Shown in pieces: positions 1-9,499 of a stretch of 14,936 nt of DNA (its first letter is position 1; the number at the start of each line of letters is the position of its first letter). This stretch comes from an uncultured bacterium (GTDB lineage Bacteria > Krumholzibacteriota > Krumholzibacteriia > Krumholzibacteriales > Krumholzibacteriaceae), in NCBI GenBank assembly GCA_965371515.1, contig CBDUYR010000059.1, forward strand, positions 1-14,936, read 5' to 3'. The notes beneath the pieces were generated by a model. That model worked only from the letters and a program-made list of their open reading frames with translations. It did not search any database and had not been told where the DNA came from. The position numbers and the translations under genes were made by a program.

Positions 1-862
1 GACCGCCACCCCTGTGATCGGACTGCCTCGGGCCTCCACCCTTGCGGTCGGACTGCCTCGGGCCTCCACCCTTGCGGTCGGACTGCCTCGGGCCTCCACC
101 CTTGCGGTCGGACTGTCTCGGGCCTTCCTTCTTCGCTTCAGCAGCCTTCTCCTGCTTCTCGAGGAAGTCCTTGTTCTTCAAGTAGCGCGCCCTGCCCTCG
201 ATGATCGCGTCGGCGAAGGTCTTCGTGAAGAGCTTGATCGACCGGATCGCGTCATCGTTCGCCGGAATGGCATATTCGAGATCGTCGGGGTCGCTGTTCG
301 TATCTATTAGACCGATCAGTGGGATGTGGAGTTTCCTCGCTTCCTTGATCGCGATTTCTTCCTTCTTTGTGTCGAACACGATGAGACAAGACGGGGCGCC
401 CTTCATCCCACGGATGCCCTCGAGCACCTTGAGAAGCTTCTGCTTGTGCTTGTCGAGCGTGAGCCTCTCCTTCTTGGAGAGCTGCTCGATGCGCCCGTCC
501 TTTTCCATCTCTTCCATGTCATCGAGACGATCGAGGCTGAGCTTGATCGTCTTGAAGTTCGTGAGGGTCCCGCCGAGCCAGCGCTCGTTGATATAGTACA
601 TGCCGCATCGCTTGGCGTCTTCGCGCACGGAGTCTTTTGCCTGCCTCTTCGTTCCGACAAACATGACCGTCTTTCCTTCCGATGCCATCTGGAGAAGAAT
701 GTCGTACGCGTTCTGGAGAGTATCGAGAGTCTGACGCAGATCGATAATGTAGATACCGTTCTGTTCCTTAAAAATATAGGGCTTCATCTTCGGGTTCCAG
801 CGCCTCGTCTGGTGTCCGAAGTGAACGCCCGCTTCCAGCAGATCCTTGATCTGGACTTTCAC
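1..862 (-). CDS. rpsB: 30S ribosomal protein S2 (3' end runs off the window), with repetitive C-terminal extension
   Basis: Not in the ORF track. Manual translation from GTG at 862 (SD AGGAGG 5 nt upstream) gives (M)KVQIKDLLEAGVHFGHQTRRWNPKMKPYIF, the S2 signature. The C-terminal part (180 to 1) is in the same frame with no stop. Confidence 0.97.
   Translation of the reverse strand, partial: MKVQIKDLLEAGVHFGHQTRRWNPKMKPYIFKEQNGIYIIDLRQTLDTLQNAYDILLQMASEGKTVMFVGTKRQAKDSVREDAKRCGMYYINERWLGGTLTNFKTIKLSLDRLDDMEEMEKDGRIEQLSKKERLTLDKHKQKLLKVLEGIRGMKGAPSCLIVFDTKKEEIAIKEARKLHIPLIGLIDTNSDPDDLEYAIPANDDAIRSIKLFTKTFADAIIEGRARYLKNKDFLEKQEKAAEAKKEGPRQSDRKGGGPRQSDRKGGGPRQSDRKGGGPRQSDHRGGG
18..124 (-). repeat. 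30-bp in-frame tandem repeat (~3.5 copies) encoding GPRQSDRKGG in the S2 tail
   Basis: Unit TCGGACTGCCTCGGGCCTCCACCCTTGCGG repeats head-to-tail from 18, with a partial variant copy at 108-124. Confidence 0.95.
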
Positions 863-6338: not shown

Positions 6339-6718
6339 GAACGGCGGAGCGAACTTGTAAGCCGAGTTCTGTCCCGTTCCGCAAGCGGACCGGTGATGAT
6401 CATTTATCTGGGGCCGGCGTTTCCGCGGGCCACGATCGACCTACCCGAGAGTCGAACGAAGCGGGCCGCTTCTCCTCTTCTATTTGGTCTTTCTCCGGGT
6501 GGGGTTTACCTGGCTGCCGCCGTCGCCGGCAGCACCGGTGAGCTCTTACCTCACCATTTCACCCTTACCGCCGGCAAGCCGGCGGCGGTATATTTTCTGT
6601 GGCACTTTCCTTGGGGTCGCCCCCACTGGGAGTTACCCAGCACCCTGCCCTGTGGAGCTCGGACTTTCCTCGGACACCCCGAAGGACGCCCGCGATCACC
6701 TCGTCCGCTCCGCCGTCC
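6339..6718 (-). ncRNA. rnpB: RNase P RNA, type A
   Basis: Minus strand has GAGGAAAGUCCGAGCUCC, GGAAAGUGCCACAGAAA, GGUGAAAUGG...GGUAAGAGC, GGUAAACCCC and ACAGAACUCGGCUUA. P1 formed by GGACGGCGGAGCGGAC / GUUCGCUCCGCCGUUC. Ends approximate. Confidence 0.98.
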
Positions 6719-6747
6719 AAACTGCATTCGGACCACTGTCTCGAGTC

Positions 6748-6776
6748 AATATATCATAGTGAGACCCGAAGGTCAA
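6748..6776 (-). promoter_or_regulatory. sigma70-type promoter of rnpB
   Basis: TTGACC (6776-6771), 17-nt spacer ending TGA (extended -10), TATATT (6753-6748). Confidence 0.8.
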
Positions 6777-6788
6777 AGGATGGGAAAT

Positions 6789-7436
6789 CTACTTGGTCTC
6801 TACTGCTTCGTCGAGGATCTCGTTGGCCAGCTTGTCGGCAGCCTCGTTGCGGGCGCGTGGGACATGCTCCCAGAGACACTTGTCGAATCCCGCCGCGAGC
6901 TCTCTGGCCTGCCCGGCGAGGACGGCGAGGTTCTTGTTTTTAATCTTGTACTCGCCGTTCATCTGCTTGACGACAAGCTCACTGTCCATCCGGATTGTGA
7001 CGTCGGCCACGCCGAAATCGGCCGCCAGCTCGAGGGCGAGAATGCATGCATTGTACTCAGCGACGTTGTTCGTCGCCTTCCCCAGCCGCTTCGCCCTGGA
7101 AGTCAGCTCCGTCCCTTCCGTATCGTAAGCGACAACTGCTGCGGATGCGGGCCCGGGATTCCCCCTGGAAGCACCGTCCGCATGGACGATCAGCTCCGAT
7201 ATCGTCATGCCGGTTATATCGACCGTCTTTGCCACGGTGCCGGCCGATACGGGTTCGGCGACAGGCGCAGGTTCAGGACAGCCGGCACAGATCTCTTTCT
7301 CCAGCTCGGCGGCCATCTCTCGCAACGCTTCCTCCGCTTCGGCCTTCGCAAGAAAGCCGGCCTGCTCCCACGCGTTATCGAGCGGCAGTCCGCCAGCGAG
7401 CAGCTCGAGAAGCTTCTTGAGGCTGTTTTTTTTCAT
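6789..7436 (-). CDS. rnhA: ribonuclease HI (actinobacterial/archaeal-like type) with ~80-aa N-terminal extension
   Basis: ADGASRGNPGPA, TNNVAEY, MDSELVVKQMNGEYKIK, HVPRARNEAADKLAN (D-E-D-D catalytic set). Start placed at ATG 7436, which overlaps the upstream stop (TGATG). Confidence 0.9.
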   Translation of the reverse strand: MKKNSLKKLLELLAGGLPLDNAWEQAGFLAKAEAEEALREMAAELEKEICAGCPEPAPVAEPVSAGTVAKTVDITGMTISELIVHADGASRGNPGPASAAVVAYDTEGTELTSRAKRLGKATNNVAEYNACILALELAADFGVADVTIRMDSELVVKQMNGEYKIKNKNLAVLAGQARELAAGFDKCLWEHVPRARNEAADKLANEILDEAVETK

Positions 7437-8167
7437 CAGGATGCCGGTTTCTGGTCGGCTGGAAAATATATGAGAATCCGCCCGCATGCCTCGCAGGTCA
7501 GTATGTTGTCGTTGCGCCTGACCTCGTGCGCATGCTGCGGCGGAACCCGACTGAAGCACCCCTGGCATACATCGCCTATGAGGTTCGCCACGCCGGAATC
7601 CCCTTTTACCCTCAGTATCCGCTCGTAGAGCCTTTGTATCCTCTCGGAGAGCAGGGGAAGGGTCCTGGACTTCTGCTCTTCCAGTCTGGCAAGCGTCGCT
7701 TTCGCCTCCTCGATCTTGTCCTCCCAGTCTTTCTTCGCTGAGAGCCTGGCATCCTTCTCGGTGTTGATCTTCTCGGTAGCCGCGTCTACTTCCTTCATCT
7801 CAGCCTCGGTCAGGTCGAGGATCTCGAGTATGCTGTTCTCGTGCCCGTCGATCTTCTTCTCGAGGAACTGGATCTCGGAGGTCTTCGCCGCGTACTCTTT
7901 ATTGTCACTTACGGCCAGCAACTCGTTCTTCTTTTTGACGATAGCCGCGCGGTCGTCCTTGACATCACCGTCGAGACGGATCTTTTCCCTCTTGAGCTTA
8001 TCCAGCTCAGCCTCTGCCTCGGTGTACCGCTCGTCCATGTCGCTTACTTCCTGCTCGAGCTTGCTGATTGTGAGCGGGGCCGTTTCGATGAGCCTCTTGT
8101 TCTCCTTCATCTGGAGTTCTTCCTGTGCCAGCTGGATAAGAAACTGGATGTCACTTTCGACCGTCAT
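7436..8167 (-). CDS. coiled-coil C4-type zinc-ribbon protein (DUF164; HP0958/CdsZ/Rv2229c-like)
   Basis: Long E/K-rich coiled coil with NKEYAA..EI, then LYERI, CQGC...CEACGRILIY. Start at ATG 8167 with SD GAGGTG. Confidence 0.9.
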   Translation of the reverse strand: MTVESDIQFLIQLAQEELQMKENKRLIETAPLTISKLEQEVSDMDERYTEAEAELDKLKREKIRLDGDVKDDRAAIVKKKNELLAVSDNKEYAAKTSEIQFLEKKIDGHENSILEILDLTEAEMKEVDAATEKINTEKDARLSAKKDWEDKIEEAKATLARLEEQKSRTLPLLSERIQRLYERILRVKGDSGVANLIGDVCQGCFSRVPPQHAHEVRRNDNILTCEACGRILIYFPADQKPAS

Positions 8168-8169
8168 AG

Positions 8170-8295
8170 TCAATCTGCACCTCTCGTCGCTAAAAAAAAT
8201 GCCTCCCGAACGGGAAGCATCTGATAAGGCATGCAGATTTCGCACCCGGGCTTGCCGGGTCGCGGAGCGATGGGATTGTTGTAAGCTCTCTCCAT
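8170..8295 (-). CDS. putative 41-aa leader peptide (uORF) MERAYNNPIAPRPGKPGCEICMPYQMLPVREAFFLATRGAD
   Basis: Open frame from ATG 8295 to TGA 8172-8170, stopping 2 nt before the Zn-ribbon ATG. SD is weak (ACAGGT directly before ATG); translation is unproven. Confidence 0.3.
   Translation of the reverse strand: MERAYNNPIAPRPGKPGCEICMPYQMLPVREAFFLATRGAD
8192..8220 (-). terminator. intrinsic terminator inside the 5' leader of the Zn-ribbon gene
   Basis: AUGCUUCCC-GUUC-GGGAGGCAU hairpin running into a U8 tract that ends 24 nt upstream of the Zn-ribbon start. Confidence 0.85.
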
Positions 8296-8308
8296 ACCTG
8301 TCGTTTCT

Positions 8309-8321
8309 TTTTCAAAGATCA
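8309..8321 (-). promoter_or_regulatory. boxA-like (NusB/NusE-binding) element
   Basis: TGATCTTTGAAAA shortly after the predicted TSS; resembles rrn boxA (E. coli TGCTCTTTAACA; TCTTTGAAAA form in many other bacteria). Confidence 0.55.
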
Positions 8322-8336
8322 GATAATGAAACGATG

Positions 8337-8365
8337 AGAATATAGGAACGCTGTGAGGCGGTCAA
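8337..8365 (-). promoter_or_regulatory. sigma70-type promoter for the leader/Zn-ribbon/rnhA unit
   Basis: TTGACC (8365-8360), 17-nt spacer, TATTCT (8342-8337), with an A-tract just upstream of -35. Confidence 0.8.
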
Positions 8366-8392
8366 GTTTTTTCTCGATAGAAATTGACTGGA

Positions 8393-9499
8393 TCACTGGT
8401 ACATAAAAACGCCGGTCTCTTCGACTGCGACAGCCTCAAGACCTGTCGTCTCGTACGAGAACTCGGTGATCGACCAGGTCGCCCCGCCGTCCGTCGTGGC
8501 CAGCACGACCGTGTAGACGACCAAGCGTCCCTCGATGACTTCTTCCCTGCCTGTGCCTGCTATCCAGCCGTTCGATGAATCGATGAAATGCACGGCACGA
8601 AGGTCGACGATCCTCTCGTCCACCGGTGCTACATCAGTCCAGGTCGCCCCGCCGTCGACGGTGTGCAGAATCGAGGTCTTGCCCACGGCGAAGACTGACA
8701 TCGCGTCGTGGACGAAGAACTCGCGGACGGTGGCCGTCTCCAACTGCATCGTCCAGGTCTTCCCGCTTTCGGTGGTCTTCATTACGGCGGCGCCGCCGGC
8801 CCATCCGGTCTCCTTGTCGTTAAACTCGATGGTGACGATCCCCCTCAGGATCGAGGCGTTCGAGCCCGGCACGGCCGACCAGGTCAGGCCGCCATCTTCG
8901 GTGGCGTATATGAGTTCGGGGTCGGAATCTGTCCACTTGCTTCCCATCAGATATGCGTTGTCCTCATCGACGACGCTCATCGACCAGGCTCCCCGGTACT
9001 CGACGATCGGCAGCCAGTTGTTTACCCAGTCGGTGCCACCGTCCTCGGTCACGAAGACTCCGTGATATCCGAGGATGAACCCTTCGGAGTCGTTGACGAA
9101 CCTGACCTCGAACAGGTCGTCCATCTCGGGATACCCGGTGAATATCTTCCTCTCCCAGGTATACCCTCCGTCATCGGAGACGTAGAGTGTGCCTTCGCGC
9201 CCGACGACCCATCCGTGCTGCGCGTCGGAGAAGTAGACTCCCCTGATGTCGAGCTCATCGATCTTCACTGGCGTCCAGGACTCTCCGCCGTCATCGGTCA
9301 CAACGGCCGTACCGAGCCGCCCAACGATCCAGCCATGGTCGGCGTCGGCGAAGTAGATGTCGTTCGCCCCGAGCAGTTCGTTCCTGATCTCCAGGGGAGG
9401 CTCGGGTGATACGGACCTGTCCTCCGAGCAGGAATGTGTCTCGAAAAGTATGAATGCGATGATCATGAGGGCGAGCAGGACGCTGCGCTTGAGTTGCAT
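8393..9499 (-). CDS. exported Ycf48/BNR (Asp-box) beta-propeller protein, possibly a lipoprotein
   Basis: Repeated F-x-D-xx-GW-x-VG...TxDGGxTW units; hydrophobic N-terminus followed by THSC. Start moved to ATG 9499 (SD AGGAG). Confidence 0.85.
   Translation of the reverse strand: MQLKRSVLLALMIIAFILFETHSCSEDRSVSPEPPLEIRNELLGANDIYFADADHGWIVGRLGTAVVTDDGGESWTPVKIDELDIRGVYFSDAQHGWVVGREGTLYVSDDGGYTWERKIFTGYPEMDDLFEVRFVNDSEGFILGYHGVFVTEDGGTDWVNNWLPIVEYRGAWSMSVVDEDNAYLMGSKWTDSDPELIYATEDGGLTWSAVPGSNASILRGIVTIEFNDKETGWAGGAAVMKTTESGKTWTMQLETATVREFFVHDAMSVFAVGKTSILHTVDGGATWTDVAPVDERIVDLRAVHFIDSSNGWIAGTGREEVIEGRLVVYTVVLATTDGGATWSITEFSYETTGLEAVAVEETGVFMYQ

What the first reader, a model, noticed from the sequence alone, without database searches (positions are those of the whole stretch)
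8168..8365. Candidate new attenuator: promoter + boxA + structured leader + intrinsic terminator gating the Zn-ribbon/RNase HI operon
Seen in sequence: a clean TTGACC-N17-TATTCT promoter would give a ~165-nt leader before the DUF164 Zn-ribbon ATG. The leader holds (i) a 5' stem UCGUUUC/GAAACGA enclosing a boxA-like UGAUCUUUGAAAA, (ii) a GC hairpin at 8264-8241, and (iii) a strong U8 terminator (8220-8192) just before the gene's SD. (iv) UAUCUGAU (8325-8318, overlapping boxA) can pair with AUCAGAUG (8225-8218), which invades the terminator's 5' arm, giving mutually exclusive folds. No second promoter is visible between the terminator and the ATG. Established: boxA recruits NusB/NusE in rRNA antitermination and regulates suhB in E. 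coli. Inference: Zn-ribbon and RNase HI expression requires conditional read-through, by a Nus-dependent, riboswitch-like or ribosome-coupled switch. I do not recognise it as a known riboswitch. It could instead be a standalone ~140-nt sRNA.
Basis: partly seen in the sequence, partly recalled or inferred. Interest (0 to 1): 0.8.

Follow-up and report, generated by a model that had tools for sequence, protein, structure and literature searches.

The report
Ribosome-gated terminator before RNA-polymerase partner gene
In front of a zinc-ribbon gene whose product is predicted to bind RNA polymerase, several groups of little-studied bacteria keep a tiny reading frame that runs right up to, or through, a transcription stop signal, so the gene is likely made only when a ribosome keeps pace with the polymerase; this looks like an undescribed variant of a known switch type.

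Summary
The promoter and terminator are real and conserved: both flank a ~115-nt leader before the CT398/HP0958-type zinc-ribbon gene in 43 of 46 loci of the order (the other 3 are contig-end or pattern misses). Its sequence is not conserved but its position is. It starts about 60-90 nt upstream and stops at the foot of the terminator or runs through it (ATG 36/43 loci; 15/19 genera vs 6.4 expected). The layout recurs in other families and, with strong Shine-Dalgarno sites, in Calditrichota and other phyla (17/21 vs 3.8). In Krumholzibacteriota the open frame is enriched in the wobble-read CGA codon (1.18 vs 0.30 per frame). Best reading: a pyrBI-like coupling attenuator in which a trailing ribosome masks the terminator, possibly autoregulating a predicted RNA-polymerase-binding factor. 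No expression data were found. The scan noted another uORF attenuator before different zinc-ribbon miniproteins in another genome.

The parts
8360..8372 (-). sigma70-type -35 hexamer TTGACC (8365-8360) with upstream A-tract (8372-8367)
   Evidence: conserved in 30 of 30 loci
8337..8342 (-). -10 hexamer TATTCT; start site inferred near 8330, in a pyrimidine tract
   Evidence: TAnnnT at spacer 17-18 in 30 of 30; pyrimidines at +7 and +8 after the -10 in 52 of 55 loci; start site not mapped
8309..8321 (-). boxA-like word, genus-limited; lies where the uORF's ribosome-binding site would be
   Evidence: matches rRNA boxA of three relatives; 4 exact, 1 with one and 1 with two mismatches in genus g1; no other of 31 genera within 1 mismatch
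8170..8295 (-). upstream ORF, 41 codons, runs through the terminator and stops 2 nt before the zinc-ribbon ATG; no strong SD in this genus
   Evidence: same frame in 6 of 6 genus members, pN/pS 0.50, lowest of six frames; translation inferred
8260..8262 (-). in-frame CGA (Arg12) codon, likely slow-read
   Evidence: CGA in 5 of 6 genus members, CGG in one; CGA enrichment across 31 genera
8241..8264 (-). GC hairpin before the terminator, candidate polymerase pause hairpin
   Evidence: a hairpin in the last 42 nt is enriched across 31 genera (mean z -1.18 +/- 0.19); pausing inferred
8227..8299 (-). genus-level helix pairing 8299-8293 (covers the uORF AUG) with 8233-8227
   Evidence: RNAalifold consensus, no compensatory change; weak
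8192..8220 (-). intrinsic terminator (9-bp stem, 4-nt loop, U8)
   Evidence: conserved at this place in relatives
7436..8185 (-). SD (8185-8178) and CT398/HP0958-type coiled-coil plus C4 zinc-ribbon gene (8167-7436), the gated gene
   Evidence: PF02591 and PF24481 above cut-off
6789..7436 (-). RNase HI-like gene, start overlapping the zinc-ribbon stop; likely co-gated
   Evidence: PF13456, PF00075; no promoter-like site between the two genes
6342..6776 (-). RNase P RNA (6711-6342) with its own promoter-like site (6776-6748), so probably not dependent on the attenuator
   Evidence: RF00010 303.7 bits
8393..9496 (-). upstream YCF48/BNR-repeat gene; no terminator-like site between it and the promoter

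Best explanation
The leader is likely a translation-coupled transcription attenuator of the pyrBI type: a short upstream ORF ends at, or runs through, an intrinsic terminator, so a ribosome that trails RNA polymerase closely would mask the terminator's 5' arm and let transcription enter the zinc-ribbon and RNase HI genes, while a lagging ribosome would let the terminator form. Shown by sequence comparison: the promoter, the terminator, the uORF's position, the stop-codon placement, the CGA enrichment, the lack of an antiterminator, and the 20-35 nt stop-to-terminator spacing of ordinary genes in this genome. Inferred: the uORF is translated; the upstream hairpin pauses polymerase so the ribosome can catch up; slow wobble-read CGA codons (or, in Calditrichota, a TTG start) set the ribosome's handicap, making read-through a measure of ribosome speed relative to polymerase speed. 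Most speculative: because the gated protein family is predicted to bind RNA polymerase, the switch may be a feedback loop on an elongation factor.
For: uORF starting at least 60 nt upstream and reaching within 16 nt of the terminator: ATG in 36 of 43 loci, 15 of 19 genera vs 6.4 expected (P 3.6e-5), any start 43 of 43. It holds against trinucleotide shuffles (median P 3.6e-4); antisense control 5.7 vs 5.3. Other families, same criteria: ATG 9 of 10 vs 3.4-3.7 expected, and the two loci missed there also have one. Other phyla, mostly Calditrichota: 21 of 21 vs 12.0, with SD 17 of 21 vs 3.8. Stops pile up at -8..0 (12.7 vs 1.6 genus-weighted) or beyond (13.4 vs 7.6), none at -40..-17 (0 vs 4.1); frame-specific 13.3 vs 6.4 and 4.3. 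Ordinary terminators in G000 lie a median 30 nt after the stop, only 17 of 135 within 12 nt. CGA 1.18 per open vs 0.30 per closed frame, 0 of 3000 permutations family-wise; 56 per 1000 uORF codons vs 3.0 genome-wide and 6.8 in gene starts. A tRNA-Arg(UCG) gene was found in 1 of 52 genomes vs tRNA-Arg(ACG) in 47. Papers (passages read): a terminator is repressed when a stop lies a few nt upstream (PMC4824070); coupling across pyrL prevents termination (PMC5021804); CGA is slow in the his leader (PMC4046918); the family is predicted to bind RNAP beta' (10.64898/2026.07.15.738315); Borrelia BB0713 co-sediments with RNAP and antiterminates trpL in E. coli (10.1101/2025.09.19.677338).
Against: No transcript or ribosome data: the four RNA runs laid had no cover over the leader. 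Peptide-level selection is weak (pN/pS 0.50 in g1; 0.73 in g2, where two antisense frames score 0.69-0.70). The window's own genus has no SD before the uORF (dG about -1), and its leader is conserved at nucleotide level (0.89 vs 0.51 at fourfold sites), which coupling alone does not explain. 7 of 43 order loci need a GTG or TTG start. Thresholds and the CGA idea came after looking at the data, and genera are kin, so P values overstate. The CGA signal is weaker in the other families (132 of 5000) and was not tested formally in Calditrichota, where few CGA are seen. PMC4824070 reports that terminators in the first 100 nt of an ORF work unless a pause couples the ribosome, so the model needs the untested pause. 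Some relatives lack the element (5 of 9 f6 loci).
Confidence: 0.66

Rival explanations
1. Stall-to-activate attenuator (trp or whiB7 logic): a ribosome stalled at CGA codons frees an antiterminator, so slow translation switches the gene on.
For: uORF with slow codons 36-72 nt upstream of the terminator and a hairpin between them; local pairings with the 5' arm can be drawn in single genera.
Against: The 5' arm is less pairable than in shuffles (probability 0.29 vs 0.39-0.43 with 30 nt free; duplex z +0.26). A ribosome at the stop would cover the arm itself; no ATG-ORF stops at -40..-17.
Confidence: 0.12
2. The terminator is controlled by a protein that recognises or melts its conserved stem (rimP-leader-like; NusA or the zinc-ribbon protein itself), with the uORF only accessory.
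For: Stem sequence conserved within each lineage, with a shared GC pair block at its base; BB0713 antiterminates trpL in E. coli (10.1101/2025.09.19.677338, passages); rimP-leader precedent (PMC2965389, passages).
Against: The same stem is a common ordinary terminator in unrelated metagenome contigs (109 stretches; output partly cut); it does not explain the uORF geometry or CGA bias. Compatible with the best explanation as a second input.
Confidence: 0.09
3. A standalone small-protein gene or sRNA with an ordinary terminator; the zinc-ribbon gene lives on constant leak-through.
For: Own promoter, about 140-nt unit, strong nucleotide conservation in the genus; strong SD in Calditrichota.
Against: Peptides and RNA body are unalignable between genera. 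About half of the ORFs run through the terminator and would give non-stop mRNA. Ordinary genes here keep terminators 20 nt or more from the stop. The unit stays tied to the zinc-ribbon gene whether a tRNA or another gene lies upstream.
Confidence: 0.08
4. One reading: NusB-S10 binding at boxA controls termination through alternative folds.
For: Exact match to the lineage's rRNA boxA including trailing bases and to the B. subtilis consensus (PMC13753749, passages); it sits over the uORF initiation region, so it could modulate uORF translation in this genus.
Against: Only 1 of 31 genera; pairings not conserved; forced fold 10 kcal/mol worse and the terminator core survives.
Confidence: 0.05

Closest known systems
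E. coli pyrBI (pyrL) attenuator
   Same: Leader ORF translated up to or through an intrinsic terminator, no antiterminator needed, coupled ribosome suppresses termination (PMC5021804, PMC4824070, passages). A 44-codon ORF ending just before pyrB is recalled, not from a call.
   Different: Gated gene is not pyrimidine biosynthetic; the leader is purine-rich, not U-rich; the handicap appears to be on the ribosome (CGA codons, TTG starts) rather than UTP-dependent polymerase pausing.
whiB7/wblC uORF attenuator
   Same: Position-conserved uORF before a terminator, general translation sensor, gates an RNA-polymerase-associated factor (10.1101/2023.06.02.543512, passages).
   Different: whiB7 uses an antiterminator and is switched on by slow translation; here no antiterminator is found and the geometry predicts the opposite sign.
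rimP-leader (rimP-nusA-infB)
   Same: Sequence-conserved leader terminator with no antiterminator before a transcription-factor operon (PMC2965389, passages).
   Different: No uORF was described for it in the passages read; different stem and gene.
boxA-regulated suhB leader
   Same: boxA next to a start codon, in genus g1 only.
   Different: boxA absent from 30 of 31 genera; the terminator here is intrinsic. The suhB mechanism (Rho-dependent) is recalled.

Membership tests
pyrBI-type coupling attenuator | Intrinsic terminator between promoter and first gene | tested here: met
pyrBI-type coupling attenuator | Leader ORF reaching within about 15 nt of, or through, the terminator | tested here: met
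pyrBI-type coupling attenuator | No RNA antiterminator required | tested here: met
   none enriched:
pyrBI-type coupling attenuator | Organism couples transcription and translation | tested here: inconclusive
   proxy only: median 30 nt stop-to-terminator, 17 of 135 within 12 nt
pyrBI-type coupling attenuator | Polymerase pause that lets the ribosome catch up | not testable with these tools
   a hairpin is enriched at the expected place; pausing not measured
pyrBI attenuator proper | U-rich, UTP-sensing leader before pyrimidine genes | tested here: not met
   purine-rich body; gated gene PF02591
trp/whiB7-type stall attenuator | Antiterminator competing for the terminator's 5' arm | tested here: not met
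amino-acid leader peptide | Run of codons for one amino acid tied to the gated pathway | tested here: not met
   no run; Arg overall 98 vs 84 out of frame, only the CGA synonym enriched
Nus/boxA-regulated leader | boxA conserved in orthologous leaders | tested here: not met
   1 of 31 genera
riboswitch or structured cis-RNA | Conserved, covarying aptamer structure or Rfam match | tested here: not met
decayed tRNA gene | Leader replaces the tRNA-Met(CAT) gene found here in other lineages | tested here: not met
   tRNA and leader coexist in L164, L165, L169 and in Calditrichota

The most novel reading that the evidence does not exclude
A cross-phylum speedometer: a sequence-free uORF with a built-in ribosome brake (inosine-wobble CGA codons) measures how closely ribosomes trail RNA polymerase and sets the level of the CT398/HP0958 family protein, which would then be an unrecognised elongation factor that autoregulates through transcription-translation coupling, together with the R-loop remover RNase HI.
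Probability: 0.25. Interest if true: 0.88.

Novelty: new variant of a known kind. Interest (0 to 1): 0.7.

Why it matters
The CT398/HP0958/Rv2229c family is widespread, reported essential in M. tuberculosis (PMC5947703, passages) and still without an agreed function; recent work places it on RNA polymerase. A conserved coupling-sensing attenuator in front of it points to a role in elongation or coupling and makes that directly testable with simple reporters. It also shows a regulatory element conserved as geometry, not sequence or fold, which covariance-model searches miss. And it offers a natural case of a single slow codon (CGA) selected in leader ORFs of a non-biosynthetic gene. I did not find this leader described: none of the listings of nine searches of the paper library showed it, and term searches within two survey papers found no mention of the gene family. 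The library lacks most subscription journals, and bioRxiv supplements were not seen.

Tried and rejected
Rfam at gathering and E-value level: only weak hits to the terminator hairpin. Other copies of the leader in the own genome: none. Conserved RNA fold of the body: none. Decayed tRNA: rejected, tRNA and leader coexist. 3'-UTR sRNA of the upstream YCF48 gene: the unit follows the zinc-ribbon gene when the upstream context differs. N-terminal extension of the zinc-ribbon gene (open frame 291 aa in four genus members): not kept in G003 or other genera. Cysteine sensing: Cys only mildly enriched in frame (24.9 vs 17.9) and absent from many uORFs. pyrG-like poly-G slippage (recalled): no G-run at the start site. 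RNA evidence: 18 runs listed, all with share 0.07 or less; the four laid were contigs, covered mostly RNase P RNA and nothing over 8138-8479, which is no evidence either way. In one search the 'exp' column is a per-genus fraction, not a count.

Full report
OBSERVATION. The gated gene carries PF02591 and PF24481 (CT398/HP0958 family). It is followed by an RNase HI-like gene and by RNase P RNA, which has its own promoter-like site. Rfam has nothing for the leader and the genome holds no second copy. Named relatives place the lineage in Candidatus Krumholzibacteriota.

WHAT IS CONSERVED. Of 41 genomes searched first, 40 had a match and 30 loci were fetched; 16 more order loci were added. The promoter pattern TTGAC-17/18-TAnnnT was found in 30 of 30 first loci, and promoter plus terminator in 43 of 46 order loci. 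The three left out were a contig end and two pattern misses; both misses show terminator and uORF. Between these fixed ends the leader is about 100-130 nt and cannot be aligned between genera. It is no more structured than shuffles (mean z 0.03 +/- 0.23 over 19 genera), and the genus alignment has 0 of 32 pairs with compensatory change. Forcing (iv) costs 10 kcal/mol and leaves six terminator pairs. The boxA word does match the lineage's rRNA boxA and the B. subtilis consensus (PMC13753749, passages), but only 1 of 31 genera has it within one mismatch. It may be a local add-on, not the shared mechanism.

THE MISSED PART. The window has a 41-codon ORF from ATG 8295 through the terminator to TGA 8172-8170, two bases before the zinc-ribbon start. 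Relatives have unrelated peptides in the same place. I required a start at least 60 nt before the terminator's first C and an end within 16 nt of it or beyond (the second value borrowed from recalled pyrBI work). 36 of 43 loci passed with ATG and 43 of 43 with any common start; by genus 15 of 19 vs 6.4 expected from dinucleotide shuffles. The result survives trinucleotide shuffles (median P 3.6e-4) and several thresholds, and the antisense strand shows nothing (5.7 vs 5.3). Among 27 loci from other families, all 8 of family f9 and 4 of 9 of f6 have the same promoter-leader-terminator layout; the rest have tRNAs or short leaders there, and one was not parsed. With the same criteria 9 of 10 have an ATG uORF (3.4-3.7 expected), and the two loci that script missed also do; I had read these by eye before the test. 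From 54 more distant loci screened, 31 with intergenic room were examined. 21 had a detectable terminator and 5' bound, 9 were scored as without terminator (three of these do show one) and one was cut off. All 21, mostly Calditrichota, where the leader follows tRNA-Met(CAT), have the uORF (12.0 expected); 17 of 21 have it with a Shine-Dalgarno site (3.8 expected), often with a TTG start. Kin are not independent, so the P values are generous.

GEOMETRY. Over 55 loci in 31 genera, ATG ORFs end at -8..0 of the terminator far more often than in shuffles (12.7 vs 1.6, genus-weighted) or run through it (13.4 vs 7.6), and none ends at -40..-17 (4.1 expected). The placement is frame-specific (13.3 vs 6.4 and 4.3). 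Ordinary terminators in this genome sit a median 30 nt after the stop, with 17 of 135 within 12 nt, the pattern used as a proxy for coupled expression (PMC7858274, passages). In E. coli a stop a few bases before a terminator represses it, and beyond about 27 nt does not (PMC4824070, passages). The terminator's 5' arm pairs with upstream RNA less than in shuffles (0.29 vs 0.39-0.43 with 30 nt free), so no antiterminator is evident, while a separate hairpin in the last 42 nt is enriched (z -1.18 +/- 0.19).

CODON SIGNAL. CGA is the most enriched codon in open frames: 1.18 vs 0.30 per frame, 0 of 3000 permutations family-wise; 1.10 vs 0.21 in the order (0 of 5000) and 1.33 vs 0.43 in the other families (132 of 5000). 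It makes up 56 per 1000 uORF codons against 3.0 genome-wide and 6.8 in the first 30 codons of genes, and clusters 36-72 nt before the terminator. Other Arg codons are not clearly enriched. A tRNA-Arg(UCG) pattern hit 2 of 52 genomes, one a true tRNA in an array, against 47 of 52 for tRNA-Arg(ACG). G000 has a deaminase ORF that I read as TadA-like from its sequence, not tested against a family library. So CGA is likely read by inosine wobble, which is slow in the Salmonella his leader (PMC4046918, passages). I noticed CGA by eye before testing it. Peptide-level selection is weak.

MECHANISM. Most likely (0.66) this works like the pyrBI attenuator (PMC5021804, passages): polymerase pauses after the hairpin, a ribosome that keeps up covers the terminator's 5' arm, and transcription continues; a ribosome delayed at CGA or at a weak start arrives late and the transcript ends near 8192. 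Translation, pausing and the sign of the switch are inferred. It is not a member of the pyrBI family proper (no U-rich leader, different gene). It also fails the defining test for trp/whiB7-type attenuators (no antiterminator; 10.1101/2023.06.02.543512, passages), boxA-regulated leaders and riboswitches. The gated family is predicted to bind the beta' subunit of RNA polymerase (10.64898/2026.07.15.738315, passages; supplements not seen), and the Borrelia member co-sediments with polymerase and antiterminates in E. coli (10.1101/2025.09.19.677338, passages). A feedback loop on an elongation factor is therefore a reasonable but untested extension. I could not model the complex. Synteny with tRNA-Met, RNase H and RNase P RNA is known (PMC3372290, passages). 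PMC12218461 (abstract and outline only) describes another uORF attenuator with different logic.

AGAINST AND OPEN. No RNA data cover the leader. The window's genus lacks an SD before the uORF and conserves the leader at nucleotide level beyond what coupling needs. The terminator stem is also a common ordinary terminator elsewhere (output partly cut). The pyrimidine tract at the inferred start site (52 of 55 loci; not seen at 63 other promoter-like sites of the genome) is unexplained and may be a second, nucleotide-sensing input. Terminators near the start of an ORF escape ribosome masking unless a pause couples them (PMC4824070).

VERDICT. Observation partly confirmed, interpretation partly supported. 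A real, cross-phylum uORF-terminator element, not found in the paper searches made: a new variant of a known kind, interest 0.70.

Noticed in passing
window 8331-8328 and orthologous leaders: Pyrimidines at +7 and +8 after the -10 hexamer in 52 of 55 leaders, not at other promoter-like sites of the genome; may mean UTP/CTP-sensitive initiation.
   Followed up: partly
window 6342-6776: Class A RNase P RNA with its own TTGACC-17-TATATT promoter-like site just after the RNase HI gene.
   Followed up: partly
window 14-130: About 30-nt tandem repeat seen as a repeated peptide in the ORF list, probably the tail of the gene on the minus strand.
   Followed up: no
L174 and L235, upstream of the zinc-ribbon gene: The tRNA-Met(CAT) 3' half is preceded by non-tRNA sequence that resembles a group I intron (recalled resemblance).
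   Followed up: no
L292 311-1634 (G041): Array of seven tRNAs including the rare Arg(TCG) and Arg(GCG) anticodons, possibly mobile.
   Followed up: partly
G000:C9:42419-42688: Second, about 116-aa protein with a PF02591 hit, present in most genomes of the phylum; identity not checked.
   Followed up: no
L164, L165, L169: The terminator after tRNA-Met(CAT) resembles the leader terminator in stem sequence, hinting at a duplication origin.
   Followed up: no
L037, L181, L182 (family f8): After tRNA-Val(CAC) lies a longer spacer with CGA-containing open frames running through a terminator, probably the same element.
   Followed up: partly
L034 upstream of the zinc-ribbon gene: Four near-identical tandem copies of an about 17-nt unit between tRNA-Val and the terminator.
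   Followed up: no
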